Shown: positions 11,630-56,181, counted from the first letter of the stretch. The stretch: 64,000 bases of DNA from Candidatus Undinarchaeota archaeon (GCA_964519305.1 CAZFHY010000010.1:64001-128000), one strand, 5' to 3'. The notes: a model not told the origin generated them from the sequence alone. Numbers and translations are program-made.

Positions 11630-12052
11630 TCACCAGTTGTACTTGAAATAGTTGATATCCACGTGCAGGTCGCGGTCCTTCGCGTCCACGTGGAGGCCCG
11701 GCGTCTCATGTCCCCAAGGCCCGGGCCAGGACGAAGTGCTCGTCTCCACCATCCCACGTGATGCCAGTTCGTCAACGACCTTCTCTGCCGTCCGGTAGAT
11801 GTCCAGGAAGTGGTACTTCTCACCGTGTACGTACGGACCGAAGGACAGCACGCTCTCCTTGACCTTCTCCTCGAGGTCCACGAGTGTATCGTAGAGCTCT
11901 ATCTCGCTCTTATCTTCCAGATCCACCGTCAATTTGCCGTCTATGGACAGTCTCACATAGTCTTGGGCCAGAGGGTTCATTCTAGTCCGGAACAGCTCAT
12001 CCCACGAGTCGCCGTCGCCATTGGAGGCACTATCTACCGGATCACCATACAT
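11630..12052 (-). CDS. Hypothetical protein, paralogue 3 of a tandem triplet
   Basis: Shares S(E/D)xELYD.L..L, SV, G..Y.F, EL..RG.V, GP(W/Y)G and DRDL.V.I.YF with the two upstream ORFs. Confidence 0.8.
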   Translation of the reverse strand: MYGDPVDSASNGDGDSWDELFRTRMNPLAQDYVRLSIDGKLTVDLEDKSEIELYDTLVDLEEKVKESVLSFGPYVHGEKYHFLDIYRTAEKVVDELASRGMVETSTSSWPGPWGHETPGLHVDAKDRDLHVDINYFKYNW

Positions 12053-12069
12053 GAGTGGAGTGCCCTGGT

Positions 12070-12083
12070 TTAGGCGAGATTAA
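12070..12083. promoter_or_regulatory. DtxR-like operator (TTAGG-CGAG-ATTAA) overlapping a TATA box
   Basis: Degenerate TTAGG-N4-CCTAA 18-31 nt upstream of ATG 12052. Confidence 0.5.
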
Positions 12084-12107
12084 ATACCTGCCCTTGGGAT
12101 TGTCGCC

Positions 12108-12449
12108 TCATCCCAGCGAGTGTACCTCGAACCAGTCCACGACCACATGAAGGTCACGGTCATGGGCATCGACGGCGTACCCGGGGATCGGGACGCCGTA
12201 CGGTCCCTTCCGAGGTGTGGTCTCCACATCGACCAGACCCCGCTCCTCAAGCTCACCGATCACTCGAACGGCCGTCTCGTAGACCTCCTGATATCGGTAC
12301 ACTGCTCCCTCGCACTGGGGCTGGCACCACATCACGCTCCGCTCGACCTTCTCAGAAAGGCCGATGAGCGCGTCATATAGCTGGATGTCTGACATATCTC
12401 CGGGATTCTCCAAATAGGAGCTCTCGAGCGGTACGACCTCTTGGACCAT
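12108..12449 (-). CDS. Hypothetical protein, paralogue 2 of a tandem triplet
   Basis: SDIQLYDAL, GAVYRYQEVY, GPYG, DRDLHV. Confidence 0.8.
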   Translation of the reverse strand: MVQEVVPLESSYLENPGDMSDIQLYDALIGLSEKVERSVMWCQPQCEGAVYRYQEVYETAVRVIGELEERGLVDVETTPRKGPYGVPIPGYAVDAHDRDLHVVVDWFEVHSLG

Positions 12450-12474
12450 GGGTGGACCCTCCCGATCCTACTGC

Positions 12475-12810
12475 CTACGTCCGGTCGGCGAAGTAGTCGA
12501 TGTCCACCGCAAGGTCGCGGTCCTTCGCTTCTACGTGTAGTGCGAAGGTGGTCGAGCCGTACGGTCCGGGTCGCGGGGTGCGCTCAACGTCCACTAGTTC
12601 CCTGGTCTCCAGCTCTCCGACCAGCTTGTTGGTCGCGCCGTAGACCTCCTGGAAGTGGTAGACCGAGCCGCCTGCCCGCGGATTGAGCAGCATCACGCTC
12701 TGCTCCATGATGCCGGGAAGCTCGTTCAACATATCGAAGAGCTCGACGTCGCTGTAGGAGGTAAGATCTCCCGTGTACGCGGCGTCGAGGTGGAGGACCT
12801 CTTGGTACAT
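12475..12810 (-). CDS. Hypothetical protein, paralogue 1 of a tandem triplet
   Basis: SDVELFDML, GSVYHFQEVY, GPYG, DRDLAVDIDYF; TTTATTAA box about 27 nt upstream. Confidence 0.8.
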   Translation of the reverse strand: MYQEVLHLDAAYTGDLTSYSDVELFDMLNELPGIMEQSVMLLNPRAGGSVYHFQEVYGATNKLVGELETRELVDVERTPRPGPYGSTTFALHVEAKDRDLAVDIDYFADRT

Positions 12811-13580: not shown

Positions 13581-14912
13581 CTACTTATCTAGCACCTGCT
13601 CGGCATCGTCCATCATCTCGATGAACCAGAGCACGGCAGGAAGGTTGTTATCGACAACGTCGTCGATCTCATCCTCGTCGGGATTGAACTGGGTGAATGT
13701 GTTGCCCCACCCTCCACCGCCTTCCAGCTCAACGGTGTAGGCGAGCATCCCCTTGGAGTCCGCCCAGTCCGTGTAGGTGCCGCTGGCCAGCGCCGTGCGA
13801 CCACCGTGGAGCACGTCGTAGGCCCGCTCCATGCGCTCGCTCATCCCATTGCCAATAGCGCGGTAGAGCTCCTCGCGTTCGCCATCCTCGGTGGTGTGGT
13901 CGGGAGCGTACTGGTATTCCCCGCCATAGGAGTGGAACGCCAGCGTTCCCTTGAAATCATGCTCGGCCACGAACTCGGCCATGGCCTTGGCCTCAGGCTC
14001 GCTCATGGCCTCGGGGCCACGGTAGGTCTGGTGCCAGTAGTTACCGCTCGCACCCGGTTTGCCCCAGGCCTCCGAGAAGTTGCGATTTAGGTCAACTCCG
14101 TGGAGAGAGGATGATTTCTCGGCCCAGGTCCCCTCCTCGACGAGCTCACTGTGGTCGCGGGCGGTCTTGCGGTGGTCCGAGTCACCGTACCGCCGCACCT
14201 GCTCGGCCACGATCATCCCGCCATCGGGATTGACGCTCGGGATTATCCATGTGTCCCTGCCGTCAACAAGCTGGGTGATGTAGGCGTCCTTACCATAGCC
14301 GTCGACCATCGCCTTCGCCACGTCGAGTGGTACCTCCACAGCGATGGCCTCCCGGGCATGGAACTGTCCTACCAGCAGCACTTCGGTCCGCGACTCGCGG
14401 TCCTTCACACGAGCATCGCTGCCGATTCGTATCGCGTAGATGGGATTGCCGAGCCCGCTCTTTCCGATTATCTCGACATGGGCTAGGTCGGGCGCCTTCT
14501 TCTCGAGGGCGTACAGTTCCTCTGCGACCTCCTCGGGAACGTGGTACTTGCCCAATCCCCCGTCCCTTAGCGGAGAATCGGTGGGTATACGCTGCCAGGA
14601 CCGGACGTACTGTCCCTGTTCGATGTATTTCTCAAGGGCATCGTCACGGTCGTAGGCGCCCCCTTCAGCGGGAAGCACCATCTCCTTGGGAAGCCGTACC
14701 TCGTAATCGCCGACATCGATCCGGTAGTCGTCCCCCAGCTCGTGCTCCAGCAGTTCCTGGTGGGCGGGAGGCGTCGTGGCCGGATGGTCCGCCGCATACG
14801 CTATCGGTGCGAGAGAAGTAATGGCCGTGGCGCCGAGGACGGCATAGGTAGCGGCGCGCTTCACCACACGGGCGAGCACACCCTCACCATCGCCGTCCCC
14901 GGCTTCTTCCAC
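13581..14912 (-). CDS. M14 zinc carboxypeptidase with an acidic extended signal peptide
   Basis: HARE, RKT, GVDLNRNF, FHSYG and TVEL motifs; leader MEEAGDGDGEG..VVKRAATYAVLG..AYA. Confidence 0.9.
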   Translation of the reverse strand: MEEAGDGDGEGVLARVVKRAATYAVLGATAITSLAPIAYAADHPATTPPAHQELLEHELGDDYRIDVGDYEVRLPKEMVLPAEGGAYDRDDALEKYIEQGQYVRSWQRIPTDSPLRDGGLGKYHVPEEVAEELYALEKKAPDLAHVEIIGKSGLGNPIYAIRIGSDARVKDRESRTEVLLVGQFHAREAIAVEVPLDVAKAMVDGYGKDAYITQLVDGRDTWIIPSVNPDGGMIVAEQVRRYGDSDHRKTARDHSELVEEGTWAEKSSSLHGVDLNRNFSEAWGKPGASGNYWHQTYRGPEAMSEPEAKAMAEFVAEHDFKGTLAFHSYGGEYQYAPDHTTEDGEREELYRAIGNGMSERMERAYDVLHGGRTALASGTYTDWADSKGMLAYTVELEGGGGWGNTFTQFNPDEDEIDDVVDNNLPAVLWFIEMMDDAEQVLDK

Positions 14913-14957: not shown

Positions 14958-16658
14958 TTACTCGTCGTCCCAGAAGGTCTCGAGCTCGTCCGTTTTGTTG
15001 GTGACAACCCACTCGTTCGCCGAGACCTCTTCGAGGTGGTACCCGTTCTTGCCGAACCGGGATACCTCCACCTTGTCCTGGCCGTCATCCAGCTTCCAGA
15101 GCTCTTTCTCTCCCATGGCCTTGATGCTCTTGACCACGGGGATGAAGTCCTTGATGCGGCGCTTGTGGGTTAGGTCGACGGTCTCCTCTTCGGAGCCGTT
15201 GTGTTTGATGTACAGATCACCATCGTTGAAGGCGACGGAGTAGTGGTTGTCGTCCTCCCTGACGATCTTACCCTGTTCACCCTTGAACGACACTTCCCAA
15301 CCGGAGTCGAATATGTACCGGTCACCATCATGGATGAAGGCAGTGCCCTCGATGGTGGTCTTGACCTCGGGCTTCTCGTTGTAGAGCGAGAAGAGGAAGT
15401 TGGAACCCACCCAGAGGGCGGCGCCGGCGGCGGCCACAGGCACGCTTGAGACGGGCCAGGCCTTGGTGGCGGCCACAGTGCCCGAATAGGTACCAAGATA
15501 GATGCCGCTGCCGATGGACGACTCTACGCCCATGATCTGCCAGAAGTTCTCCGAGTAGTCGTCGTGCTCATGCTCCTTCTTGTTGATGAGCTGGTCGTGG
15601 ATGGCGATGTTGGCCTTGCCGCTCATGACACCGGAGATAGCGCTGGCCACGGTTGCCGCGCCGTATATACCGATGAACGCATAGCCGGGGTTCTCTCCGA
15701 AGCGCTTGAGGATGTCAGGGTGGAGGGCGAAGTAGCTGGCGCCGGTGACGGTGCCTAGTCCGGCCGTGTAGAGGTTGACCTTCTTTAGCGCCTCCATGGG
15801 CTTTTCGGAGTTGACGGCGTTGTCGACAACACTCCCCAGTACGCTCTCTCCGAGGATACTGAGCGCGGGGCTGCCGATGTTACCGATCGAGGTGATTGTG
15901 CTGGCGATACCGTAGGCGGCGCCCTGCTCCCACAGCTTGGGCGTGATGACGCCCAAGAGCATGGCAGCACCGACGTTCCCCATCAGGTCACCGACCTTCA
16001 GGACGGCGTACTCGGGATCCTCCTTGAACAGTCGGTAGAACACCTTGAACTTGTCCATGAAGGACTTCTCATCCATCTGGTACATCTCAAGGGAGAGGTC
16101 GTCAGGGATGCCAAAGAAGCTCTTGAAGTCCTCGTTGAAACCGAACTCCTCGAACTCCACGGTCTCTTTGAGGTTGAAGCCGTTCTCCTTGAGGTACTCC
16201 TTGAGGCCAGGATCAGCATCATCGGGGACCGGCAGTTTCTTGGTGCCGATCAGCGAGCCGAAGAACTTACCTTCGCCCCGTTCGGTGATGACCTCGGTGC
16301 GGTATGCCATGGCCGGGTGGAAGGCAGGGTCCTTGACGTCGTACGCCGTGAAGACAGCGTCCTTGCCGGCGGCCGCAGCGGCACGGTAGGCGTCCACATG
16401 GATGCCCTCCTCGTCGGTGTGGTACACCACGGAGAACCGCGCGCCATCGTACCCGGCGTTCACCAGATCGATGTACTGCTCCTCAATCCCGAAGTTGGCC
16501 TTCGCGAACTCGATATTGTTCGGGTTCAGTTGGAACTCGTCGTACTGCGTTCCCGCTACGAAGAGCGGGTTCGCATCGAGCTTGCGAGTAAAGATCTCAG
16601 AGGCAGTGTTGTTCTCCTCATGAAAATCCTCTTCGGAGAGGACTGCTGCATCATACAT
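14958..16658 (-). CDS. Unknown protein: soluble N-domain, ~6-TM MFS-half-like core, soluble C-domain
   Basis: Start re-placed at ATG 16658 (MYDAAV) from the TTTTTTAAA box at about 16683-16691; hydrophobic block about 15380-16010 containing GSVVDN. Confidence 0.65.
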   Translation of the reverse strand: MYDAAVLSEEDFHEENNTASEIFTRKLDANPLFVAGTQYDEFQLNPNNIEFAKANFGIEEQYIDLVNAGYDGARFSVVYHTDEEGIHVDAYRAAAAAGKDAVFTAYDVKDPAFHPAMAYRTEVITERGEGKFFGSLIGTKKLPVPDDADPGLKEYLKENGFNLKETVEFEEFGFNEDFKSFFGIPDDLSLEMYQMDEKSFMDKFKVFYRLFKEDPEYAVLKVGDLMGNVGAAMLLGVITPKLWEQGAAYGIASTITSIGNIGSPALSILGESVLGSVVDNAVNSEKPMEALKKVNLYTAGLGTVTGASYFALHPDILKRFGENPGYAFIGIYGAATVASAISGVMSGKANIAIHDQLINKKEHEHDDYSENFWQIMGVESSIGSGIYLGTYSGTVAATKAWPVSSVPVAAAGAALWVGSNFLFSLYNEKPEVKTTIEGTAFIHDGDRYIFDSGWEVSFKGEQGKIVREDDNHYSVAFNDGDLYIKHNGSEEETVDLTHKRRIKDFIPVVKSIKAMGEKELWKLDDGQDKVEVSRFGKNGYHLEEVSANEWVVTNKTDELETFWDDE

Positions 16659-16856
16659 GAAGGCCACGGGCACCATCGACGGTTTAAAAAAGGTTTTCCT
16701 ACGCGAACCGGAAAACTCGTGTGTCACTACCGCAGAGACACACCACAAATCGCGAAAAGGAAAGGCATTATCACCCGGAATAGGGTGGTTCGCGAATGTC
16801 CGGCCAGAACCGGAATAAGGTGTCACCCGCGAGTAGGAACAAAAGGGAGGGGATAT

Positions 16857-19319
16857 CTAGGCGGTCGCCTCAGCGCCCTCAGGCGCTCCCTCGCTCGACG
16901 TCTCATCCTCTTTCTTCGTGATCTGGAAGTGGAAGAGAGACCTCGTCGACTGCCAGCGGATCCCGCTCTGCATCCCCTGGTACATGTTGAACGCCTCGGT
17001 CTGGTACTCGATGAACGGGTCCTTCTGAGCATAGGCCCTAAGGTGTACACCGCGCTTCATCTCATCCATACCCAGGAGGTGGTCCTTCCACGACATGTCA
17101 GCAGAGTGCAGAAGGACCTGTCGCTCCACCTGTCGGATGACATCCGTCCCTATCTCGGCCTCGCGTTCGTGGTAGCGTCGCATGGCCTCGTTCGTGAGGT
17201 TCTCGGTCAGCTCGTCAGCGTTCTTGACCGAGGCCACGTTGAGGTCGGCCACGTCGATGCCGAAGAGCGCCTGACAGTTATACGCGAACTGCTTCTGAAG
17301 GAACTCGTTCTCCCACTGGTGGGGCTTGGGGCCCTCGGCGGCGAACGATTCCACGACCTCCTCTGCCGTCCGCTCGATGACGTTGTACACGTCCTGCTGC
17401 AGGTCAGGCCGCTCGAGGATGACGTTGCGGTCCTCGTAGAAGATCTCCCGCTGCGTGTTCATGACCTCGTCGTACTTCAGCAGGTTCTTGCGCATCTCGA
17501 AGTGCATGCCCTCGACCTTGACTTGGGCTTGTCGGACGACCTTGTCGATGAGCTTGCCCGACAGCGGCTCGTCCTTGTGGGCGCCTGAGAAGTACTTCTC
17601 CATGTTCTCCGGTCCGTAGAACCGTAGAAGTTCGTCCTCAGCGGACAGGTAGAACCGGCAGGAACCAGGATCTCCCTGGCGACCCTCGCGTCCCAGGAGC
17701 TGGTCGTCGATGCGACGCGAGTCGTGGCGCTCGGTGCCGATGACATGGAGACCTCCGATGTCGGCCACGCCTTCTCCGAGCTTGATGTCGGTACCGCGAC
17801 CGGCCATGTTAGTGGCGACGGTCACTGCACCCTTCTGCCCGGCCCGGCCAATTATGTCGGCCTCCTGCTTATGGTGTTTGGCGTGGAGCACCTGGTGGTC
17901 GATGCCGCGGGCGATGAGCATATCGCTCAGGTGCTCGGACACATCGATGGAACGGGTGCCAACGAGCACGGGGCGGCCTGCCTCGTGCTGGGCCACGATG
18001 TCGTCAACGATCGCGTCGTACTTCTCCTCGGCTGTGCGGTACACCAGGTCGGGCTGGATGTCCCGCTGCATGGGCTCGTTCGTCGGTATCTGGGAGACGT
18101 CCATGCCATAGAGGGAGATGAACTCGCCCTCCTCGGTCTTTGCGGTCCCGGTCATGCCCGAGACGCGGTCGTACATCCGGAAGAAGTTGGGGAACGTGAT
18201 GGAAGCGTAGGTCTGGGAAGGCTCGCGGACCTTCATTTCGGTCTTCCCGGTGGCTAGAAGGTCGTTGTTGGCCTCTTTCGCCTCCAGGGCCTCGTGCAGC
18301 CCGGCCTCGTACCGCCTGCCGTGCATGAGGCGACCGGTGAACTCGTCGACGATTAGCAGCTCACCGTCCGAGACTACGTAGTTCTTGTCCTTTGTGAAGA
18401 GCGAGTGGGCGGCGATGCACTGGCGTGCCGAGTGGTAGAGATGCATGGTCCGCTCGTCCGTGGGCGAGTCCACCCCGAGGGCCTTGGCCAGCTTGTCATC
18501 CCCGCGCTCCGTGAAGAATACGATATGGTCCTTCTCGTGCACCTCATAGTCGCGCCCGGGTTCGAAGTCGCGGACGATACGGTCCATGATGAGGTACTCG
18601 CGGGCAGAGGTGCCCGTGCGTCCAGAGATGATGAGAGGAGTTCTCCCCTCGTCGATGAGGATGGAGTCGACCTCGTCGATGATAGCATAATGCATGCCCC
18701 GCATGACCCGGTCCTCGGGCCGGCGGACCATGTTGTCTTTGAGATGGTCGAATCCGAACTCGTTGTTCGTCCCGTAGGTGATGTCCGACTGGTATGCCGC
18801 CCTGCGGTCCTCGGGGGACTGGTCGTGCTGGATGGTACCGACGGACATCCCCATGAACTCGTAGACCGGAGCCATCTCCTCGGCGTCGCGACCGGCCAGA
18901 TAATCGTTGGCGGTGATGACGTGGACGCCCTTTCCTTCCAATGCATGGAGGTACCCGGAGAGGGTCGCCACCAGTGTCTTGCCCTCACCGGTCTGCATCT
19001 CGGCGATGCGGCCCTCGTGGAGGATCACGCCGCCCTTGACCTGGACGTCGTAATGGCGCATCCCGGTCACGCGGCTGCTCGCCTCGCGCACAGCAGCATA
19101 GGCCTCGGGCATGAGGTCGTCCAGGCTCTCGCCCTCCGCGTATCTATCCCGGAACTCGTTGGTCTTGCCTGCGAGCTCCTCGTCCGAGAGTGCCGCCATC
19201 TCGTCAGCGTAACCGTTGACCTCATCGACGATGTCGTCCAGACGCCGCTGCTCGCGATGGCTGTAGGAGAAGAAGGACTTCACGCCGTCGTAGAATCGAT
19301 CGAGCAACCCGTCCTCCAT
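16857..19319 (-). CDS. secA: Preprotein translocase ATPase SecA (no C-terminal Zn-binding tail)
   Basis: EMQTGEGKT, YLAGRDA, IIDEVDSILIDEGRTPLIISG, GMTGTA, ATNMAGRGTDI, RRIDDQL.GR.GRQGDPG, AYAQKDP. Confidence 0.95.
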   Translation of the reverse strand: MEDGLLDRFYDGVKSFFSYSHREQRRLDDIVDEVNGYADEMAALSDEELAGKTNEFRDRYAEGESLDDLMPEAYAAVREASSRVTGMRHYDVQVKGGVILHEGRIAEMQTGEGKTLVATLSGYLHALEGKGVHVITANDYLAGRDAEEMAPVYEFMGMSVGTIQHDQSPEDRRAAYQSDITYGTNNEFGFDHLKDNMVRRPEDRVMRGMHYAIIDEVDSILIDEGRTPLIISGRTGTSAREYLIMDRIVRDFEPGRDYEVHEKDHIVFFTERGDDKLAKALGVDSPTDERTMHLYHSARQCIAAHSLFTKDKNYVVSDGELLIVDEFTGRLMHGRRYEAGLHEALEAKEANNDLLATGKTEMKVREPSQTYASITFPNFFRMYDRVSGMTGTAKTEEGEFISLYGMDVSQIPTNEPMQRDIQPDLVYRTAEEKYDAIVDDIVAQHEAGRPVLVGTRSIDVSEHLSDMLIARGIDHQVLHAKHHKQEADIIGRAGQKGAVTVATNMAGRGTDIKLGEGVADIGGLHVIGTERHDSRRIDDQLLGREGRQGDPGSCRFYLSAEDELLRFYGPENMEKYFSGAHKDEPLSGKLIDKVVRQAQVKVEGMHFEMRKNLLKYDEVMNTQREIFYEDRNVILERPDLQQDVYNVIERTAEEVVESFAAEGPKPHQWENEFLQKQFAYNCQALFGIDVADLNVASVKNADELTENLTNEAMRRYHEREAEIGTDVIRQVERQVLLHSADMSWKDHLLGMDEMKRGVHLRAYAQKDPFIEYQTEAFNMYQGMQSGIRWQSTRSLFHFQITKKEDETSSEGAPEGAEATA

Positions 19320-19345
19320 CAAGTTGGCCTCGGCCCCGTACGGCC

Positions 19346-19360
19346 TTAATAAAGGTTTCT
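19346..19360 (-). promoter_or_regulatory. BRE/TATA promoter of secA
   Basis: Minus strand AGAAACC-TTTATTAA, 27 nt upstream of ATG 19319. Confidence 0.6.
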
Positions 19361-19394
19361 CTGCGGGGGACTGGAAAACGGCATACGTAGGTCC

Positions 19395-20018: not shown

Positions 20019-20022
20019 TCGA

Positions 20023-20403: not shown

Positions 20404-20440
20404 TCCTTTCAGTTCTTACAGTATGATATCGTTCGCGGCC

Positions 20441-20980: not shown

Positions 20981-21017
20981 GTCCGGCCCTGCCCCTTGTC
21001 CCCTTTTTATACCTTTC

Positions 21018-21049
21018 TTTGGTATACCTAATATATTGGGACTGCCTAA
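21018..21049. promoter_or_regulatory. Tandem DtxR-like operators
   Basis: TTTGG-TATA-CCTAA (21018-21031) and TTGGG-ACTG-CCTAA (21036-21049), 18 bp period. Confidence 0.6.
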
Positions 21050-21130
21050 TATATAGGGCTCTGAGCACAGCTTACCGACATACACAGTAATGTTAGGGGA
21101 TACGAATACATGCAGAGCCGATGAACGGCA

Positions 21131-22715: not shown

Positions 22716-22725
22716 CGGGATACCT

Positions 22726-46481: not shown

Positions 46482-46489
46482 CGGACCGC

Positions 46490-48037: not shown

Positions 48038-48045
48038 TATCCCTC

Positions 48046-49527: not shown

Positions 49528-50787
49528 CTATTGAACATCACTGACCCGACGGGGTCTGCTTCATCTTCTCTGCTCGGTCCTTGAGCCACTCGTCCCACTG
49601 GGTGTCCTCGGCGAACTCCATCTGCTCGTACGCCTCACCGTCGTAGGATCCTGCCCACCAGCTCGACGGTACGTAGATGTGCAGCCCGTGGGAACCGGGA
49701 TGGCTCGAGTTGTGGTGCTCGGCCACGATCGCCTGGTCAACGGCCTCGATGACCTTGTTGGCAGCGAGCTTCACGTCCTTGCCGTACTGCTCGTTGGCAG
49801 CAAGGTTCTTTGCCAGGTCGACCACGTCCACCAGGGGCGATCCCCAGCCGTAATCCTGGCTGTTGCCCTCCACGGTGTTGAACTCGGTAACGGGTACCTC
49901 GGACGCGCGCAGCGCCTCGGCCAGCCCGTTCACGGCTGATGCCACCTTGGGCATCTTCTCGAGCTCTGTTGAGGAGAGCGTGTCGAAAGTGGCGGTATCG
50001 TTAGCGCCTTCCTTGACTATTAGATAGGAGTAGAGCTTGGGCGAGAGCGCGGGGCGGTCAGCGTCCTTGAAGGAGCGGTTGAACTTCTCCATGACGTCCA
50101 GGGCCCGCTGGCTGATGATGCCCTCGAAGGGCCAGCCCTCGACGCCCTCCAGCTCCTCGCTGGCCACCAGGAACCCGGCCGCGTCGCGGACCTGGTAGGC
50201 TACCTCGGTCGAGCCCATGAGGCACGCGTCGAAGCCGAGGATGTCGATCTGTGCGCCGGTGCGCTCCTTGACCTGCTCGAGCGCCTGGTCGAGCTCCGGC
50301 GTGGACATCTGTCCTGCGTGGTGTGAGCTGTCGTCGATGAAGCCCTCCCAGCCCGAACCATGGTCGGCGATGATGAGCATGTAGTGCTTGGCAGGGAAGT
50401 TGTTGACGGTGAACTCCACGAACTCCGCCAGTGTCTCAGGAGCGGCCATGTCCACCTGTCCGAGCTCCTCCAGCACCGGTGAGTTGTAGTTGATAGGGTC
50501 CGTGTCCTTCTGGATGTGATAGCGCCGGGCACCGGTCCAGTCACCGCCTTGCGGTGTGTCGGCGGTGTAACCGCGGTCCACCTGGACCACGATGTCCATG
50601 TAGTCGTTGGACCCCAGCTTCTCCATGTCGTTGATGTCGGTGAGCTGGTCGTTCTCGAGGTTGTTGTCAGAGGCGGAGTAGATCATGACGGTCCATTCCT
50701 TGGCCTCGGAGGGAACCCGGGCATCCTCGCCATACACAAGGGGGATGTCCTCGGGCAGGGTGACCTGGTATTCGCCCATGTCGATGG
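49215..50787. repeat. Copy 1 of a ~1.57 kb direct duplication
   Basis: Matches about 52130-53700 at an offset of 2913 bp across most of its length, including the intergenic CTATTGAACA (49528/52441). Confidence 0.85.
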
Positions 50788-50956
50788 CATCGGGACCGGT
50801 GACGGTCCCCTGCTGGTGGACGTAGGCGGGCTGCACCGGCGCGGCGCCCATGACTGGCGCCATCACGCCGCCGACGGCCGAGAGCACGCCCGCTGCAAGA
50901 GCGGCGTAGCCCGCGACCTTCCCGACAGGTGCTCCGTCACCGTCGGCCTCCTCCAT
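49538..50956 (-). CDS. Clostripain-family (C11) cysteine peptidase 4
   Basis: ADHGSGW and GFDACLM; start ATG 50956 (MEEADGDG) next to the upstream stop. Confidence 0.9.
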   Translation of the reverse strand: MEEADGDGAPVGKVAGYAALAAGVLSAVGGVMAPVMGAAPVQPAYVHQQGTVTGPDAIDMGEYQVTLPEDIPLVYGEDARVPSEAKEWTVMIYSASDNNLENDQLTDINDMEKLGSNDYMDIVVQVDRGYTADTPQGGDWTGARRYHIQKDTDPINYNSPVLEELGQVDMAAPETLAEFVEFTVNNFPAKHYMLIIADHGSGWEGFIDDSSHHAGQMSTPELDQALEQVKERTGAQIDILGFDACLMGSTEVAYQVRDAAGFLVASEELEGVEGWPFEGIISQRALDVMEKFNRSFKDADRPALSPKLYSYLIVKEGANDTATFDTLSSTELEKMPKVASAVNGLAEALRASEVPVTEFNTVEGNSQDYGWGSPLVDVVDLAKNLAANEQYGKDVKLAANKVIEAVDQAIVAEHHNSSHPGSHGLHIYVPSSWWAGSYDGEAYEQMEFAEDTQWDEWLKDRAEKMKQTPSGQ

Positions 50957-50957
50957 C

Positions 50958-52430
50958 CTAGGTACCCCCGTCCCGCTCGTTGGTCTCGGCCACCGCCCGC
51001 TCCACGAGCTCGTCCCAGTGGGTGTCCCGGGCGAACGCAGTGGCGCGGTACTCGTCACCATACTTCCCGAACACCCGATCGTCGAACGTGAGGAACACCT
51101 GCAGCCCGTGCGCGTCCCGGTTCTCCTCGTTGTGCTGCTCCGCGACGACCGTCTTCGCGAGTGCGTCGAGCACGCCCCGGGCAGCGTCCCGGACCACCTC
51201 GTCGCCGGCGTACGCGTCGCTTGCGAGAATCCTCTCAGCGAGGTCGCCCGTGTCCACGACCACGCCGTTGGCGTACCACCATAAGGTGTTGTCCCCCACC
51301 TCCTCGAACGTGCTCATGGACACGCCCGATGCATCGAGCGCCCTGGCGAGCGAGTCCATCGCCTCGACCACGTCGGGCATCCCGGACAGCTCGACCGCGG
51401 ACAGTGTCTCGATCACGTCCTGATGACGCTCGGCCTCGCTCACGATGAGGTACGACATGATCCGTGGTGTGAGCTCGGGCCGCTCGCCGTCCTTGAACGC
51501 ATCGGTGAACCTCTTGCCGACCCCCACGGCGGCTCTTCCAAGGAACCCGTCGTAGGACCAGCCGTCCGCCCACTCGACCGCCTCGCTGGCCACCATGTAG
51601 TCTGCCGAGCCACGCAGCCGGTACGCGACCTCGGTGGAGGCCATGAGGCACATGTCGAACCCGAGGACGTCGATTTTCACGCCCGTCCTCTCCTTCACCA
51701 CCGCCAGTGCTTCCTGCATCTGCGCCGGCGTCATCAGGGTCGACCCGCTGGCCGAGTAGTCCACTATGGCACCGTGCCAGCCGAGGCCGTGGTCGTGGAT
51801 GACGAGCAGGTAGTGCTCGGCGGGGAAGCTCGAGAGGCCCCAGGTGACGAAGTCCGCGAGCGTCGCCGGGTCGGCCATATCGACCTGCCCGAGCTCGGCC
51901 AGCACCGGCGACGTGATACCCACCTCGCCGTCGTCCCTCTGGAGGCGGTACCGCCGGGCGCCGGTCCACTCGCCGTGCCCCTCGGCCACAGCATCGGCCT
52001 CCACGCCCCGGTCCATCTGGACGACGACGTCCATGTACTCGCTGGAGCCCACGCTCTCCATCTCGTCGATGTTGTCCATCAGGTAGTGCTCCAGATCGTT
52101 GTCTCCTGCGGCGTAGACGAGCACGGTCCACTCCTTGCCCTCGGCCCTTTCGCCGTCTGCTTCATAGTTCAGCGGGATGGACGAGGGGAGGGTGACAGAA
52201 TAGTTGCCCATGTCGATGACGTTCCCCTGGGTGCTCTGCTCGACCTCAGTCACATAGGCCGGCTGCGGGGTAGTGCCCGGGGGCGGCTGTACTGGCGGGA
52301 GGATGCTTAAGGCGCCGCCGATGGCGGCCACAAGTCCTAGGCCAGCTGCACCGTAGGTCGCGACCTGTTTGAGCGTGAGTCCTTCCTCTTCTCGTTCCGG
52401 CGTTTCATCCTGCTCGTTCTCGATATACAG
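50958..52430 (-). CDS. Clostripain-family (C11) cysteine peptidase 5 (CTG start or start-proximal frameshift)
   Basis: HDHGLGW and GFDMCLM; the frame is open to CTG 52430 (LYIENEQDE..), while ATG 52434 is out of frame. Confidence 0.82.
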   Translation of the reverse strand: MYIENEQDETPEREEEGLTLKQVATYGAAGLGLVAAIGGALSILPPVQPPPGTTPQPAYVTEVEQSTQGNVIDMGNYSVTLPSSIPLNYEADGERAEGKEWTVLVYAAGDNDLEHYLMDNIDEMESVGSSEYMDVVVQMDRGVEADAVAEGHGEWTGARRYRLQRDDGEVGITSPVLAELGQVDMADPATLADFVTWGLSSFPAEHYLLVIHDHGLGWHGAIVDYSASGSTLMTPAQMQEALAVVKERTGVKIDVLGFDMCLMASTEVAYRLRGSADYMVASEAVEWADGWSYDGFLGRAAVGVGKRFTDAFKDGERPELTPRIMSYLIVSEAERHQDVIETLSAVELSGMPDVVEAMDSLARALDASGVSMSTFEEVGDNTLWWYANGVVVDTGDLAERILASDAYAGDEVVRDAARGVLDALAKTVVAEQHNEENRDAHGLQVFLTFDDRVFGKYGDEYRATAFARDTHWDELVERAVAETNERDGGT

Positions 52431-53700
52431 TCATAATCACCTATTGAACATCACTGACCCGACGGGGTCTGCTTCATCTTCTCTACTCGGTCCTTGAGCC
52501 ACTCGTCCCACTGGGTGTCCTCGGCGAACTCCATCTGCTCGTACGCCTCGCCGTCGTAGGACCCTGCCCAATAGCTCGACGGGACGTAGATGTGCAGCCC
52601 ATGGGAACCGGGATGGCTCGAGTTGTGGTGCTCGGCCACGATCGCCTGGTCTACGGCCTCGATCACCTTGTTGGCCGCGAGCTTCACGTCCTTACCGTAC
52701 TGCTCGTTGGCAGCAAGGTTCTTTGCCAGGTCCACCACGTCCACCAGGGGCGAGCCCCAGCCGTAGTCCTGGCTGTTGCCCTCCACTGTGTTGAACTCGG
52801 TGACGGGTACCTCGGACGCACGCAGCGCCTCGGCTAGCCCGTTCACGGCTGATGCCACCTTGGGCATCTTCTCAAGTTCAGTGGAGGAAAGGGTGTCGAA
52901 GGTGGCGGTATCGTTGGCGCCCTCCTTGACGATTAAGTAGGAGTATAGCTTGGGCGTGAGCGCGGGACGGTCGGCGTCCTTGAACGATTGGTTGAACTTC
53001 TCCATGACGTCCAGGGCCCGCTGGCTGATGATGCCCTCGAAGGGCCAGCCCTCGACGCCCTCCAGCTCCTCGCTGGCCACCAGGAACCCGGCCGCGTCGC
53101 GGACCTGGTAGGCTACCTCGGTCGAGCCCATGAGGCACGCGTCGAAGCCGAGGATGTCGATCTGTGCGCCGGTGCGCTCCTTGACCTGCTCGAGCGCCTG
53201 GTCGAGCTCCGGCGTGGACATCTGTCCTGCGTGGTGTGAGCTGTCGTCGATGAAGCCCTCCCAGCCCGAACCATGGTCGGCGATGATGAGCATGTAGTGC
53301 TTGGCAGGGAAGTTGTTGACGGTGAACTCCACGAACTCCGCCAGTGTCTCCGGGGCGGCCATGTCCACCTGTCCCAGTTCCGCCAGGATTGGTGAGTTGT
53401 AGTTGATGGGATCCGTGTCCTTCTGGATCAGATAGCGTCGGGCGCCGGTCCAGTCGCCGCCCTGAGGCGTGTCAGCGGTGTAGCCGCGGTCCACCTGGAC
53501 CACTATGTCCATGTAGTCGTTGGATCCCAGTTTCTCCATGTCGTTGATATCGGTGAGCTGGTCGTTCTCGAGGTTGTTGTCCGACGCGGAGTAGATCATG
53601 ATGGTCCATTCCTTGGCCTCGGAGGGCACGCGGGCATCCTCGCCGTAAACGAGGGGGATGTCCTCGGGCAGGGTGACCTGGTATTCGCCCATGTCGATGG
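52130..53700. repeat. Copy 2 of the ~1.57 kb direct duplication
   Basis: See 49215-50787. Confidence 0.85.
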
Positions 53701-53923
53701 TACGGGACTTGACGACATCCTGGGCCTCCGTGATGAAGGCGGGCCTGTGAGGCCCGGTCCCCGGAGCGGGCGCGGTATCGCCGGGACCCGCGGTGACGCC
53801 GATGGCGCCGCCCACGGCTGCAGCGAGGCCGAGGCCCAGTGCGACATACCCGCCGACCTTCTTGAGGGTGAGCCCTTCCTTCTCGTTCTCCAAGTCAGTT
53901 TCGTACTCTACGTCCATGATCAT
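52451..53923 (-). CDS. Clostripain-family (C11) cysteine peptidase 6
   Basis: Near-identical to peptidase 4 from IDMGEYQ onward; start overlaps the upstream stop (TGATG). Confidence 0.9.
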   Translation of the reverse strand: MIMDVEYETDLENEKEGLTLKKVGGYVALGLGLAAAVGGAIGVTAGPGDTAPAPGTGPHRPAFITEAQDVVKSRTIDMGEYQVTLPEDIPLVYGEDARVPSEAKEWTIMIYSASDNNLENDQLTDINDMEKLGSNDYMDIVVQVDRGYTADTPQGGDWTGARRYLIQKDTDPINYNSPILAELGQVDMAAPETLAEFVEFTVNNFPAKHYMLIIADHGSGWEGFIDDSSHHAGQMSTPELDQALEQVKERTGAQIDILGFDACLMGSTEVAYQVRDAAGFLVASEELEGVEGWPFEGIISQRALDVMEKFNQSFKDADRPALTPKLYSYLIVKEGANDTATFDTLSSTELEKMPKVASAVNGLAEALRASEVPVTEFNTVEGNSQDYGWGSPLVDVVDLAKNLAANEQYGKDVKLAANKVIEAVDQAIVAEHHNSSHPGSHGLHIYVPSSYWAGSYDGEAYEQMEFAEDTQWDEWLKDRVEKMKQTPSGQ

Positions 53924-54981
53924 CACTCCCACTCTACCCAGTCAGGGTTGTAGGTGCCCAGGGGCAGGTCGTCCCCGAACATCGATTGTGGTGAATATCC
54001 TAGTTGAGAATAAGCGACATCCCGGGGGATGAGCAGGTCGCGAACGTTGTTATCGGTGAGATAGGCCTTGCCGTCGATGATGGTCTCGGTCCAGGCATGA
54101 CCTCCGCCCTTCATCGTCCCGAGCACGACCACCGAATCGTATCCCTTGGCCTCGAGCAGTGAGTTCGATGCGAGCGCGTAGTCCTCGCAGTCGCCCCGGG
54201 AGAGGCCTGTGAGGAAGTGATCAGGGTTCTGCCAGTAATCGGTGTGACCTAGATGATCGGCGTCGAAGAAGTACTTCCCCATGAGCGGATTGCCGTCGGC
54301 GAACCGCATGAACTTGATACCGGATATGTTGTTCCCACCGATGTTGATCGCGGCGGGATAGTCGCGGACCTCGAGGTTGTTGGCGAAACCCTGGACCACC
54401 TCGTTGTCCGGTGTGATGTAGGACGAGGGATTATTGGGCATGTAGAAGCCCCGCTGCTCGCCGATCTCCTGGTGCCGGAGCGAGGGGAAGCCGTCGGGGA
54501 TCCCGTCGCTGTTGGCGTCGGGATTATCAGGGTGAAGGTCGTAGCCGTCAGCGAGCCCGTCGCCGTCCCGATCGAGGACCATGAAGTCGGGATCCTTGCC
54601 GTCGATGATACCGTCAGCGTCCACGTCGGGATTGGACCAGTCCCAGTCCCTACCGTCGAGGATACCGTCCCCGTCGATGTCGGGATTACCGGGATGAGGG
54701 TCGATGGAATCGTAGAGGTGGTCGCCGTCAGCGTCCGCCATGGCCTGCTCGGGGGAGAGCGTGGGAACGCTGTCGTCGCCCAGCACACGGGCCTTGGGCG
54801 GACCGGGTTCGGCCTCTTTGCCGAGCAGTGCACCGAGGACGAGCCCACCGGTGATTGTGAGTCCGACCGCGATGAAGCCCTTGGCCACCGACTCGGCGTT
54901 CAGGTCCTCGGTGACCATGTAGCCGTCGGCCGCCGTGGCGGTCCCGGCATCATCGGTCTCGAGGTCGATGTCCATAGCCAT
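53923..54981 (-). CDS. DLET-leader protein with TSP3-like Ca-binding repeats and a C-terminal transglutaminase-like Cys peptidase
   Basis: DADGD, DIDGDG, DVDADG and DRDGDG repeats; WQNP..RGDCEDYA, GHAW, D. Confidence 0.8.
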   Translation of the reverse strand: MAMDIDLETDDAGTATAADGYMVTEDLNAESVAKGFIAVGLTITGGLVLGALLGKEAEPGPPKARVLGDDSVPTLSPEQAMADADGDHLYDSIDPHPGNPDIDGDGILDGRDWDWSNPDVDADGIIDGKDPDFMVLDRDGDGLADGYDLHPDNPDANSDGIPDGFPSLRHQEIGEQRGFYMPNNPSSYITPDNEVVQGFANNLEVRDYPAAINIGGNNISGIKFMRFADGNPLMGKYFFDADHLGHTDYWQNPDHFLTGLSRGDCEDYALASNSLLEAKGYDSVVVLGTMKGGGHAWTETIIDGKAYLTDNNVRDLLIPRDVAYSQLGYSPQSMFGDDLPLGTYNPDWVEWE

Positions 54982-55961
54982 CAGTTCCCCTCCCTGACTT
55001 CAAGCTCGTAGCCACCGTTATCGATGTCGTACACCTGGACACCGTACACGTCCTCGAACGAGGGGATGATGTGCATGTCCTGGCCCTGACCCCGCATGTG
55101 GAGCGAGGCCTCGAAATCCTCGATGACCTTTGAAGGATCGTTCTGGATATCCTGGTAGAACTGCTGGGCGGCCTTCTTGAGCTCGCCCTTGAAGTAGGGG
55201 ACTCGGTCGCGTTCGAAGGTCTTGACCGCCTCCTCGCCCCCGAAAGCAGCAAGTGTGGCCTCGTCCTTGTACTGTTTCTGTACGGGTTCGAGGTACTCGT
55301 TCAGCGTCGCCTGGACAACCTGGGCACCCACGTACTCGAGCGTTGTCTTCAGTGCCCCCTCGCGTGAGGAGAACTGCATCCAGATGGCGTCCTTCTCCTG
55401 CTCGGAGAGCGGGCCGTTGCCACCGTTGATCCGGGCGGTCTCGATGGTCTCGATGAGGTTGTGATAGTCGGTCCGGGCATCGAACTGCGCCAGGTTCTCT
55501 ACGCTGTAGGACACCTGGCCATGGATGAAGACATCCTTGGCGGCGTCTGCCTTCTGGCCGGTGTAGGTGGCGAGCTGCCCGACGGGGATGTCGATGTCGA
55601 CCGTCTGCCGCTCAAGGGACACCTCCTCGTAGCTGGAGAAGGGGACAGGGAGACGAAGGACGAACTTGCTCCCATCGGTCTCGTTCTCGATGTAGCGGGT
55701 ACCACCTTCGAAGTCGAGGATGCCTCGTTCATCGAGCTGGACGGACTCGTGGATGATGGCGCCGGTGTTGGGGGGGACGATACCGACCGTGGACACCATA
55801 CCGAAACCGACACCGAGGGAGGCGAGACCGAGGCCGATGTACTTGCCGACGGTCATGGCCTGCGCGCCCAGCGGCAGGTCCGAGAACTTAGTTGCTTCCT
55901 CCTCACGGTTGTCCGGTTGTAGGTCTTCCTCTTTGAGCTTCTCGTCCTCAATGTCCCTCAT
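54981..55961 (-). CDS. SPFH/Band-7-like membrane protein, divergent
   Basis: Acidic N-terminus, one TM, then IVPP..GAI, PVPF..V.L..Q, V.Y.V.N and YGVQV.DI patterns; probable start ATG 55961. Confidence 0.5.
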   Translation of the reverse strand: MRDIEDEKLKEEDLQPDNREEEATKFSDLPLGAQAMTVGKYIGLGLASLGVGFGMVSTVGIVPPNTGAIIHESVQLDERGILDFEGGTRYIENETDGSKFVLRLPVPFSSYEEVSLERQTVDIDIPVGQLATYTGQKADAAKDVFIHGQVSYSVENLAQFDARTDYHNLIETIETARINGGNGPLSEQEKDAIWMQFSSREGALKTTLEYVGAQVVQATLNEYLEPVQKQYKDEATLAAFGGEEAVKTFERDRVPYFKGELKKAAQQFYQDIQNDPSKVIEDFEASLHMRGQGQDMHIIPSFEDVYGVQVYDIDNGGYELEVREGN

Positions 55962-56110
55962 ATCGGTTACCCCCAATGTTTCATACGTCCGTCCCCGTAG
56001 CCACGGCTGCGGCATGCCATACTGTACCGTGGCGTCCGGACCTAAATCGCCACCCTCCCGCCCTTATATAGGTTGTTCCTCCATATATCGGAAAAACTTA
56101 CGAGAAACGC

Positions 56111-56129
56111 ATCACTACGGCTTAGTTAC
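56111..56129. promoter_or_regulatory. Inverted repeat ATCACTA-N5-TAGTTAC, candidate operator
   Basis: Two mismatches to the 41129 palindrome; upstream of the TATATAA box at about 56064-56070. Confidence 0.4.
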
Positions 56130-56181
56130 AACTCCGAAGTACGGCGGAAAAATACACATTTCAAGTGGGGATCTTCAGTCC

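What the first reader, a model, noticed from the sequence alone, without database searches (positions are those of the whole stretch)
11630..56130. Candidate archaeal anti-bacterial export and effector island (SecA, pilin-like protein, peptidoglycan hydrolases, tagged hydrolases)
Seen: about 44 kb of mostly co-oriented genes combining an intact SecA, a class III-signal protein, two giant M23/SLT proteins, six clostripains, other peptidases and membrane-hairpin unknowns. They are linked by shared leaders and a shared operator. Known: archaea make no bacterial-type peptidoglycan and typically lack SecA, and M23 and SLT domains cleave peptidoglycan. Inference: the island encodes a contact-dependent predation or parasitism toolkit that opens a bacterial wall and delivers or displays digestive enzymes, possibly induced by metal limitation.
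Basis: partly seen in the sequence, partly recalled or inferred. Interest (0 to 1): 0.93.

Follow-up and report, generated by a model that had tools for sequence, protein, structure and literature searches.

The report
Archaeal SecA beside secreted hydrolase genes
A marine archaeon that makes no bacterial-type cell wall carries a working-looking copy of SecA, a protein-export motor said to be absent from archaea, surrounded by genes for exported protein- and bacterial-wall-digesting enzymes.

Summary
The contig is archaeal: MCM, aIF1A and Topo VI lie on the same contig. The genome is 99.8% complete, and no Mur ligase, PBP or FtsW/RodA gene was found.

Window 16857-19322 encodes a full SecA that passes NCBIfam's housekeeping-SecA cut-offs. 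It is one of two paralogs, under purifying selection (dN/dS 0.076), behind a TATA/BRE-like promoter. A SecA-specific domain was found in 2 of 401 archaeal genomes searched, both in this genus.

All six clostripains of the genome lie here with intact His/Cys. Thirteen window genes share a peculiar acidic, Gly/Ala-rich leader. The best other leader hit in the genome lies beside the second secA.

- Only one giant has M23. Both giants have a divergent SLT-like domain.
- The giant/976/609-aa trio is one of about 20 such cassettes genome-wide, so it is not specific to this cluster.
- The "operator" motif is real but sits in five promoters only. None of these is the SecA, giant or main clostripain promoter.

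Best reading (0.5): SecA-assisted export of surface hydrolases for digesting bacterial material. Contact-dependent predation and metal control are not shown.

The parts
16857..19322 (-). SecA, bacterial-type preprotein translocase ATPase (820 aa from the ATG at 19319)
   Evidence: Pfam SecA_DEAD 7e-120, P-loop_SecA, SecA_PP_bind and SecA_SW. NCBIfam PRK12904 1000.7 bits against cut-off 814 and TIGR00963 932.5 against 800; all SecA2 models fall below their cut-offs. Walker A/B intact and no SEC-C tail. dN/dS 0.076 against the sister species.
19323..19394 (-). SecA promoter region: purine-rich stretch plus TTTATTAAGG, ending 24 nt before the ATG
   Evidence: Read. It is 97% identical in the sister species. 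The archaeal BRE/TATA reading rests on recalled promoter architecture.
14958..16826 (-). u622, an unknown protein in the SecA operon. It has an N-terminal alpha/beta domain, six long Gly/Ala-rich helices and a C-terminal beta domain
   Evidence: No Pfam or NCBIfam family. 11 relatives among 1.84 billion representatives. AF2 mean pLDDT 64.9. No fold match at E<=0.001. dN/dS 0.091.
13581..14912 (-). M14 carboxypeptidase with the shared leader; last gene of the SecA operon
   Evidence: Pfam Peptidase_M14 1.8e-52. The nearest solved structure is carboxypeptidase T, 1.8e-25. Leader HMM 5e-22.
11630..12810 (-). Three small acidic paralogs (140, 113 and 111 aa) without hydrophobic segments; function unknown
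   Evidence: No Pfam family. 43-47% identical to each other. The 111-aa protein has dN/dS 0.029.
19395..26671 (.). Variable block absent from the sister species. It holds a CpeT/DUF1001 protein, a 124-aa leader ORF (20023-20397), a TSP3-repeat leader protein, a transglutaminase-core protein, a 151-aa hairpin ORF, an FG-GAP protein, a 253-aa ORF, a DUF1838 protein and a 271-aa peptidase-like ORF
   Evidence: Pfam. Absence in G001 contig C41. Leaders.
26741..28570 (-). u609, a pilin-like (class III signal-like) protein with a C-terminal Cys; one of 21 paralogs
   Evidence: The N-terminus reads RARAQ followed by ISLIGLIAISIAVLVIV. The family pattern holds in 19 of 21 paralogs, and a C-terminal Cys lies within the last 4 residues in 21 of 21. 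Found in 2 of 301 archaeal genomes, plus 1 weak hit.
28564..31494 (-). u976, a Sec-signal protein paired with u609; C-terminus PGNW.N....C
   Evidence: Paralog family, nearly always adjacent to a u609-like gene.
31501..35457 (-). Giant 1318-aa secreted protein with an SLT-like domain and no M23
   Evidence: 44% identical to the 1883-aa giant and lacks its residues ~200-380. Pfam SLT 13.7 bits, below the cut-off.
35461..41112 (-). Giant 1883-aa secreted protein: Sec signal, M23 (residues 246-351), SLT-like domain (~400-590), Cys-rich and PT-rich middle, and a conserved C-terminal module (~1400-1883)
   Evidence: Pfam M23 1.1e-10. Profile against PDB: zoocin A 1e-4. Motifs. SLT 18.2 bits. The top Foldseek hits are g-type lysozymes and MltE/C/F, best E 0.021, from a model of mean pLDDT 49. 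The C-terminal module occurs in about 22 giants.
41299..44092 (-). Alpha/beta hydrolase (42980-44092) and clostripain C11a (41299-42948), both with the leader; absent from the sister species
44311..45093 (-). u260, unknown. Its promoter carries the palindrome CCTAAACGTTTAGG
45183..56015 (-). Main protease operon: u344 (leader), transglutaminase-core protein Tgl2 (leader), five clostripains (52451-53932, 50958-52331, 49538-51061, 48046-49527, 46490-48037) and a 449-aa HExxH-like protein
   Evidence: Pfam. NCBIfam MXAN_6640_HExxH 6e-7, below its cut-off. Tight or overlapping gene spacing. All six C11 genes found in the genome by tblastn are in the window. dN/dS 0.07-0.2.
56182..56973 (-). TrmB-family transcription regulator at the edge of the cluster
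   Evidence: Pfam TrmB 4e-17. 98% identical in the sister species. No link to the cluster's promoters was shown.

Best explanation
This is a conserved chromosomal gene cluster of a deep-branching, large-genome marine archaeon in which no murein-synthesis genes were found.

At its centre is a SecA ATPase acquired once from bacteria and then duplicated. It is transcribed with an unknown six-helix membrane-like protein (u622) and a carboxypeptidase.

Around it lie 13 genes whose products carry one lineage-specific leader. They include six clostripains, the M14 carboxypeptidase, an esterase-like hydrolase, a transglutaminase-like protease and several unknowns. The leader has a long net-acidic N-region, a weakly hydrophobic Gly/Ala-rich core, a Pro-rich stalk and a conserved PAYV..IDMGxYxVxLP box.

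Proposed mechanism (inferred): these weakly hydrophobic leaders are poor substrates for co-translational targeting. SecA pushes them post-translationally through the archaeal SecYE-beta channel. They then stay on, or are released from, the cell surface as a digestive layer.

The neighbouring cassette puts an M23 endopeptidase and SLT-like muramidase heads on giant secreted proteins. Its partners are u976 and the pilin-like u609. This is one copy of a roughly 20-copy family.

Together the enzymes would open bacterial murein and digest the proteins behind it, from living or from dead bacteria.

Shown: gene content, intact motifs, purifying selection, synteny in one sister species, archaeal context, and no murein-synthesis genes found. 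Inferred: that SecA serves these leaders, that the enzymes are extracellular, and that bacteria are the substrate.
For: - Archaeal context and assembly. MCM, aIF1A and Topo VI A/B lie on the same contig. Per-run contigs of 4 runs from 2 studies cover 12000-31900 with no differences and even depth. These runs may be the source data.
- SecA. It passes the housekeeping cut-offs. The second paralog on C36 does too. Motifs are intact and the paralogs are 62.7% identical. dN/dS is 0.076. The archaeal copies form one clade with support 1.0.
- Leader-secA link. The leader HMM built from 8 window proteins found, among 31,001 ORFs, 9 strong hits, all in the window. The best hit elsewhere (8.5e-6) is the DUF302 gene directly downstream of the second secA.
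- Leader chemistry. The 15-residue hydrophobic core scores 1.5-2.2 (Kyte-Doolittle). Acidic residues outnumber basic ones in the N-region of 13 of 13 leaders. The giants, u976 and u609 score 2.7-3.3 and have basic N-regions.
- Operon. SecA, u622 and M14 are separated by 30 and 45 nt, and the order is kept in the sister species.
- No Mur ligase, PBP or FtsW/RodA was found.
- M23 motifs are intact. M23 is found in none of the 4 control archaea but 5 times in this genome, 4 of them in giants. NlpC/P60 is found in 4 giants.
- The C11 dyad is invariant in 6 of 6 copies.
- Archaeal secreted peptidoglycan hydrolases that kill bacteria are documented (PMC12352652, passages read).
Against: - Only one SecY is present and it is of archaeal type. 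No SecA is known to work with such a channel. Its cytosolic C5 loop looks like that of SecA-less relatives. No bacterial SecG was found.
- The SecA promoter lacks the motif shared by some neighbouring promoters.
- Synteny rests on a single sister species with dS of only 0.3-0.9, which is weak evidence for functional linkage.
- Seven further leader-like ORFs lie on other contigs, away from either secA. The second HMM matches its 14 training sequences by construction.
- The giants, u976 and u609 carry ordinary, strongly hydrophobic signals, so they need no SecA. Their cassette type occurs about 20 times elsewhere.
- The SLT domain falls below Pfam's cut-off, and its structural model has low confidence.
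- No known peptidoglycan-binding domain was found in the giants.
- Export, cleavage and topology of the leader proteins were not predicted with a dedicated tool.
Confidence: 0.5

Rival explanations
1. One reading: a contact-dependent predation or parasitism toolkit. The archaeon attaches to bacteria, breaches the wall with the giant hydrolases and delivers or displays digestive enzymes on the prey.
For: - Everything listed for the best explanation applies here too.
- Other giants of the same family carry adhesion-type heads: three C-type lectin domains on C20 and FG-GAP repeats on C15. An FG-GAP protein also lies in the window.
- u609 is pilin-like, and 4 prepilin-peptidase-like genes exist in the genome.
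- The conserved C-terminal cysteines suggest a disulfide-linked surface assembly.
Against: - No injection or contractile apparatus was seen in the window.
- No attachment, expression or host data exist.
- 6 of the 9 further giants scanned have no recognisable domain.
- A 3.6 Mb genome with an Rnf complex fits a free-living heterotroph.
- The same enzymes would serve scavenging of dead cells equally well.
Confidence: 0.17
2. The neighbourhood is a coincidence. SecA is a general housekeeping addition to this archaeon's export system, or has another role. The surrounding hydrolase genes are ordinary detrital-protein degradation genes, like the clostripains of sediment archaea, and have no special tie to SecA. 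The cluster is not a functional unit.
For: - The SecAs pass housekeeping models, not accessory ones.
- Promoters differ between units, and the shared motif skips SecA.
- Two blocks come and go between sister species.
- The giant cassette is one of about 20.
- M14 paralogs without this context sit on C28, C29 and C37.
- Clostripains are reported in protein-degrading archaea (PMC6461988 and others, search listing only).
Against: - The leader is concentrated around both secA genes, including the independent hit next to the second paralog.
- M14 with this leader is in the SecA operon itself.
- All six clostripains found in the genome lie here.
Confidence: 0.28
3. Artefact: the secA region is bacterial DNA wrongly binned or mis-joined into an archaeal assembly.
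For: - SecA's nearest relatives outside the genus are bacterial, at 49-53% identity.
- The genome is a MAG with 4.29% estimated contamination.
Against: - The same 136-kb contig carries MCM, aIF1A and Topo VI.
- Separate per-run contigs show the same joins at even depth.
- An independent MAG of the sister species has the same arrangement.
- secA has a TATA/BRE-like promoter and the acidic composition of its neighbours.
- No bacterial L19, Mur ligase, PBP or FtsW was found anywhere in the bin.
Confidence: 0.03

Closest known systems
Bacterial housekeeping SecA (SecA1) of the general Sec pathway
   Same: Full domain set: NBD1, PPXD, NBD2 and the scaffold/wing domains. Walker A/B are intact. It scores above NCBIfam's equivalog cut-offs and is about 50% identical to SecA of Bacillota and Desulfobacterota.
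   Different: The host is an archaeon whose only SecY is of archaeal type, and no SecG was found. There is no C-terminal zinc-binding SEC-C tail. Two paralogs exist. The promoter looks archaeal. A 2026 review states that archaea have no SecA homolog (PMC13673990, passages read).
Accessory Sec systems (SecA2, or SecA2/SecY2) of Gram-positive bacteria
   Same: There are two SecA paralogs. One sits beside genes for a special set of exported proteins.
   Different: Both paralogs fall below every SecA2 model cut-off. No second SecY was found. No Asp/Gtf accessory genes were seen in the window.
Archaeal secreted peptidoglycan hydrolases that kill bacteria (zoocin A-like M23 proteins of Halobacteriales; PMC12352652)
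   Same: An M23 domain sits on a signal-peptide protein in an archaeon without murein. The best PDB profile match is zoocin A.
   Different: Here the domain sits in a 1883-aa Cys-rich giant together with an SLT-like domain. No recognised peptidoglycan-binding domain is present. The protein belongs to a multi-copy cassette with a pilin-like partner. Antibacterial activity is untested. The paper's supplementary tables, which I could not open, may or may not list this lineage.
Extracellular clostripain (C11) sets of protein-degrading sediment archaea such as Thermoprofundales/MBG-D
   Same: Multiple C11 peptidases with export signals in a heterotrophic archaeon (listing only; the original single-cell genome report is recalled, not seen).
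   Different: Six tandem copies sit in one cluster, all with one unusual acidic leader, next to secA and murein hydrolases.

Membership tests
SecA (housekeeping preprotein translocase ATPase) | DEAD-like motor with Walker A and B, preprotein cross-linking domain, and helical scaffold/wing domains | tested here: met
   Pfam finds all four SecA domains. GEGKT, DEVD and TNMAGRG are present in both paralogs (the motif strings are recalled).
SecA (housekeeping preprotein translocase ATPase) | Score above the curated equivalog cut-off | tested here: met
   PRK12904 1000.7 bits against 814 and TIGR00963 932.5 against 800. The C36 paralog scores 977.2 and 920.4.
SecA (housekeeping preprotein translocase ATPase) | Works on a bacterial-type SecYEG channel | tested here: not met
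   One SecY only, matching NF006341 and lying next to archaeal uL30. The SecG hit scores 24.3 bits against cut-off 29.2, inside a 698-aa frame. Whether SecA can use the archaeal channel could not be tested.
SecA (housekeeping preprotein translocase ATPase) | ATP-driven translocation of preproteins | not testable with these tools
   Purifying selection (dN/dS 0.076) shows only that the protein is in use.
Accessory SecA2 system | SecA2-type sequence, plus SecY2 or accessory Asp genes | tested here: not met
   All four or five SecA2 models fall below their cut-offs. There is a single SecY.
Peptidase M23 | HxxxD and HxH zinc ligands, and a Pfam score above the gathering cut-off | tested here: met
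   HRGID and HLH are present. 42 bits against 28.7. This holds for the 1883-aa giant only.
SLT / family 1 lytic transglycosylase (goose-lysozyme-like fold) | Catalytic Glu in an E-S motif, GLMQ-like and AYNxG-like motifs | tested here: met
   QES, GIMQ and GYNRG are present in both giants. The motif definitions are recalled.
SLT / family 1 lytic transglycosylase (goose-lysozyme-like fold) | Pfam score above the gathering cut-off, or a confident fold match | tested here: inconclusive
   18.2 and 13.7 bits against 21.3, although the alignment covers 4-110 of 117 profile positions. Foldseek's best E is 0.021 and none reaches 0.001; the model has mean pLDDT 49.
Peptidase C11 (clostripain) | His/Cys catalytic dyad and a full-length family match | tested here: met
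   6 of 6 copies match 1-357 of 359 profile positions. His and Cys are invariant. The clostripain equivalog itself is not met: 76.7 bits against 550.
Archaeal class III (prepilin-like) signal protein | Short basic N-region, [GA] at -1, then about 20 hydrophobic residues | tested here: met
   The window copy reads RARAQ followed by ISLIGLIAISIAVLVIV. The pattern holds in 19 of 21 paralogs. This is pattern only; no dedicated predictor was run.
Archaeal class III (prepilin-like) signal protein | A prepilin peptidase in the genome; processing and assembly into a filament | tested here: inconclusive
   4 Peptidase_A24 matches in the genome. Processing, assembly ATPase and platform genes were not examined.
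Modular archaeal peptidoglycan hydrolase (sense of PMC12352652) | A catalytic domain plus a recognised cell-wall-binding domain | tested here: not met
   The catalytic M23 is present. No binding domain was found by Pfam or NCBIfam.

The most novel reading that the evidence does not exclude
This lineage has built a second, post-translational export route that no other known archaeon has. A bacterial SecA, perhaps coupled to the archaeal channel or to the six-helix protein u622, recognises a dedicated acidic Gly/Ala-rich leader. It arms the cell surface with proteases. In parallel, about 20 disulfide-stapled, pilin-anchored giant proteins carry interchangeable heads (murein hydrolases, lectins). 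Together these would make the organism the first archaeal bacterivore.
Probability: 0.15. Interest if true: 0.95.

Novelty: new variant of a known kind. Interest (0 to 1): 0.8.

Why it matters
Textbooks, and a review from September 2026 (PMC13673990), state that archaea have no SecA. How archaea move finished proteins across the membrane is a long-standing open question.

This genus holds two intact, selected SecA genes next to a recognisable candidate substrate class and an archaeal SecY. That makes the question testable: can SecA drive an archaeal channel, and what had to change?

The cluster also adds a large, unusual case to the very recent evidence that archaea attack bacterial walls. It comes from a deep-branching marine lineage whose genome is three to six times larger than those of the genomes classed with it.

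Tried and rejected
- Donor of SecA. A FastTree of 122 SecA sequences put the archaeal copies in one clade (support 1.0) on a long branch. That clade was sister to all 118 bacterial hits under midpoint rooting, so no donor can be named.
- SecY co-adaptation. G000 and G001 SecY carry a 45-60 residue insertion. It lies between TM7 and TM8 on the outer side, not in the cytosolic SecA/ribosome loop, so it is not evidence for adaptation to SecA.
- u622 identity. There is no Pfam family in 10 of 10 family members and no NCBIfam family. No fold match reached E<=0.001; only weak likeness to six-helix halves of MFS transporters was seen. It remains unexplained.
- Metal regulation. I found no metal-related gene or regulator. 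A CopC hit in u976 (E 0.003, below cut-off) was dismissed as noise. A Binary_toxB hit in the TSP3 protein (E 0.0073, below cut-off) was dismissed likewise.
- The operator as a link across the whole cluster was rejected.
- M14 as a murein-peptide amidase was rejected. Its nearest structures are digestive carboxypeptidases T, A and B.
- Expression. No RNA holder was listed for the stretch, so nothing can be said about expression.
- Complex prediction was not attempted. SecA plus SecY exceed the 1000-residue limit, and other pairs were too speculative.
- Literature. 'archaeal SecA' returned one paper, the review that denies its existence. 'Undinarchaeota' with 'large genome' returned nothing relevant.

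Full report
**What organism and contig this is.** The window is bases 64001-128000 of a 136-kb contig (C10). The genome is 3.63 Mb in 42 contigs, GC 0.54-0.65, with estimated completeness 99.83% and contamination 4.29%.
- It has an archaeal 16S rRNA (1508 bits) and ribosomal protein S6e. No bacterial L19 was found.
- About 45-60 kb upstream of secA, the same contig carries MCM, aIF1A and both Topo VI subunits.
- Mur_ligase_M, PBP transpeptidase and FtsW/RodA were each found 0 times. Each rang in 10-12 of the 14 control genomes.
- Logan contigs of four runs from two studies cover 12000-31900 with no differences. Depth is equal on both sides of every join. The only break is a 37-nt piece of double depth inside secA, as expected from the second paralog. 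These runs may be the data the window was assembled from, so this checks the assembler, not the sample.
- I conclude the contig is archaeal and not chimeric.

**Placement of the lineage.** The genomes classed with it are 0.6-1.2 Mb, and only one same-genus genome (G001, 3.8 Mb) resembles it.
- Its 16S is 74-78% identical to those class-mates. The best match among the 60 other genomes searched is 81%.
- Public records label close copies of its SecA inconsistently, as 'Undinarchaeales' and as 'Methanopyri'.

**SecA.** The ORF at 16857-19322 has SecA_DEAD, the SecA P-loop, the preprotein cross-linking domain and the wing/scaffold domain.
- It passes NCBIfam's housekeeping SecA equivalogs and fails every SecA2 model.
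- Walker A, Walker B and the TNMAGRG motif are intact. The SEC-C zinc tail that most bacterial hits carry is missing.
- A second paralog, 62.7% identical, lies on the 8-kb contig C36 and passes the same models.
- Outside the genus, the best of 8000 scored proteins are bacterial at 49-53% identity.
- The four archaeal sequences form one clade with support 1.0. This points to one acquisition followed by a duplication.
- Against the sister species, dN/dS is 0.076.
- The SecA-specific SecA_SW domain was found in 2 of 401 archaeal genomes searched, 1 of 268 genera.
- A 2026 review says no archaeal SecA homolog exists. My search for 'archaeal SecA' found only that paper.
- The genome has one SecY. 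It is of archaeal type and sits in the ribosomal protein operon. No SecG passed the cut-off.

**Transcription units, read from the intergenic sequences.** Purine-rich stretches followed by TTTATTAAG-like boxes sit 24-35 nt before the start codons of several genes. This is the archaeal leaderless pattern; that architecture is recalled, not tested here.
- By spacing and promoters, the units are:
  - SecA-u622-M14
  - the three small paralogs
  - Tgl-TSP3-small ORF-CpeT
  - a plus-strand unit (u151, FG-GAP, u253)
  - u271-DUF1838
  - giant-giant-u976-u609
  - abH-C11a
  - u260
  - u344-Tgl2-five C11-u449
- The SecA promoter is 97% conserved in the sister species.

**The shared leader.** Eight N-termini align over an acidic stretch, a Gly/Ala-rich hydrophobic core, a Pro-rich segment, PAYV.E and IDMG.Y.V.LP.
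- An HMM of these found 9 strong hits among 31,001 ORFs. These are the eight training sequences plus the sixth clostripain, all in the window.
- Three weak hits followed. The best of them (8.5e-6) is the DUF302 gene immediately downstream of the second secA. This is the main independent evidence for a leader-secA link.
- A broader HMM was built from 14 N-termini, which match it by construction. It gave 21 ORFs at E<1e-3: 14 on C10, 1 beside the second secA and 6 elsewhere. Seven of the 21 were not in the training set.
- The leaders have net-acidic N-regions in 13 of 13 cases, and cores of Kyte-Doolittle 1.5-2.2.
- The giants, u976 and u609 have short basic N-regions and cores of 2.7-3.3.
- In bacteria, weakly hydrophobic signals go the SecA route and strongly hydrophobic ones the SRP route. 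This is established knowledge, recalled. It underlies my proposed mechanism and is an inference here.

**The enzymes.**
- All six C11 genes found in the genome by tblastn are in the window. All keep the His and Cys.
- M14 is nearest to carboxypeptidase T.
- The alpha/beta hydrolase is nearest to esterases and lipases. A bactericidal archaeal alpha/beta hydrolase has been reported (bioRxiv 10.64898/2026.06.10.730825, listing only). I did not compare the two.
- The 1883-aa giant has a Sec signal, M23 with HRGID and HLH, an SLT-like domain, Cys-rich and PT-rich parts and NxS/T sequons.
- The 1318-aa giant is a 44% paralog that lacks the M23 segment.
- SLT is sub-threshold in Pfam, although the alignment covers nearly the whole profile.
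- The AF2 model is poor overall (mean pLDDT 49) but reaches 65-86 in the SLT part. Its top Foldseek matches are goose-type lysozymes and MltE/MltC/MltF at E 0.02-0.04. None reaches 0.001. I call this domain SLT-like and probable, not proven.

**The trio is a multi-copy cassette.** tblastn and blastp within the genome show 21 u609-like and about 22 u976-like genes, nearly always adjacent. About 22 giants share the C-terminal ~480-residue module, and many lie next to such pairs.
- The u609 family has R-x-[GA]-Q before the hydrophobic stretch in 19 of 21 members. It has a Cys within the last four residues in 21 of 21.
- The u976 family ends in PGNW.N....C.
- Heads differ between giants:
  - M23 in 4 giants
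  - NlpC/P60 in 4 giants
  - SLT-like in 4 giants
  - C-type lectin x3 in one and FG-GAP in one
  - nothing recognisable in 6 of the 9 additional giants scanned
- The u609 family was found in 2 of 301 archaeal genomes, plus one weak hit.
- The giant family has 5 clusters among 5.8 billion proteins, and u609 has 3.
- The murein-hydrolase giants are therefore a trait of the whole genome, not of this cluster. Their adjacency to secA may be chance.

**Synteny.** The sister species' 43-kb contig reads: Rnf ... M14-u622-SecA-u609-u976-one giant-u449-clostripains-Tgl2-u344-TrmB.
- It lacks window 19397-26738, the second giant and 41030-45182.
- All tested genes are under purifying selection, with dN/dS 0.03-0.27.
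- With dS of only 0.3-0.9, conserved order says little about function.

**The operator.** RCCTAAAY occurs 7 times in the window (1.57 expected; 0 of 100 shuffles reach 7). It occurs 42 times in the genome, so its density is 9.5-fold higher here.
- In the promoters of s140, Tgl, u271 and u260 it lies 4-6 nt after the TATA-like box. In u260 it forms CCTAAACGTTTAGG. The abH promoter has a variant.
- Four of these five promoters lie in segments absent from the sister species.
- The instance before u344 is not conserved there. That 43-kb contig has one copy only.
- So the motif is real and local. It does not tie together SecA, the giants and the main protease operon.

**Verdict.** The best-supported reading is a SecA-assisted export cluster for surface hydrolases, used with the genome-wide giant murein hydrolases to digest bacterial material. 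Whether the bacteria are alive and touched (predation) or dead (scavenging) cannot be told from sequence.

Noticed in passing
G000 contig C36:3068-5542 (+), locus L025; next gene at C36:5776-6639: A second intact SecA paralog, 62.7% identical to the window copy. It is followed by a DUF302 protein carrying the same kind of leader. The contig is only 8 kb, so its wider context is unknown.
   Followed up: partly
Genome-wide, e.g. C1:2714-29964, C2:101424-110612, C7:78573-86793, C15:29781-39027, C19:1070-12084, C20:68337-81428: About 20 cassettes, each with one to three giant proteins (1.1-2.8 thousand aa, sharing a ~480-aa C-terminal module), a ~940-aa Sec-signal protein and a ~610-aa pilin-like protein. 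All families have conserved C-terminal cysteines, which suggests a disulfide-linked surface assembly. By my rough arithmetic from the gene lengths (not computed by a call), they make up roughly 6% of the genome. The family was found only in this genus among 301 archaeal genomes searched.
   Followed up: partly
G000 C10:31514-48757, upstream of the window (locus L026): Three consecutive giants of 2224, 2015 and 1505 aa. The first has NlpC/P60 and the second has M23 plus NlpC/P60.
   Followed up: partly
G000 C25:29880-31466 (locus L030/L047): SecY of this genus is 529 aa, against 465-490 aa in 12 class-mates. The difference is a 45-60 residue Cys-containing insertion in the outer loop between TM7 and TM8.
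   Followed up: partly
G000 C14:33511-34979 (locus L001): The 16S rRNA is at most 81% identical to any of the 60 other archaeal genomes searched, and 74-78% to those classed with it. Those class-mates have genomes of 0.6-1.2 Mb against 3.6 Mb here. The lineage looks much deeper and more unusual than its labels suggest.
   Followed up: partly
window 52332-52430: The fifth clostripain (50958-52331) has its leader in frame upstream, but there is no ATG, GTG or TTG there. A stop codon directly precedes a CTG. This means either a rare start codon or a copy with a truncated leader.
   Followed up: no
window 41113-41298: The promoter region of the giant operon holds a different palindrome, GTCACTA-N5-TAGTGAC, between the TATA-like box and the start. 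It could be the site of the TrmB-family regulator at 56182-56973, but this was not tested.
   Followed up: no
window 5471-11625: An Rnf-type complex (RnfB-like Fe-S protein, Rnf-Nqr subunit, FMN-binding subunit, RnfD) and ApbE lie directly beside the cluster. They are conserved in the sister species.
   Followed up: no
window 19395-20018: A CpeT/CpcT (DUF1001) protein, E 1.6e-40. This family is known from cyanobacterial bilin attachment. Here it sits in an archaeon, in a block absent from the sister species.
   Followed up: no
window 18647-18683: A 37-nt piece inside secA has twice the depth of its flanks in three of the four runs laid. This fits an identical stretch in the second paralog, and it is where the per-run contigs break.
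   Followed up: partly
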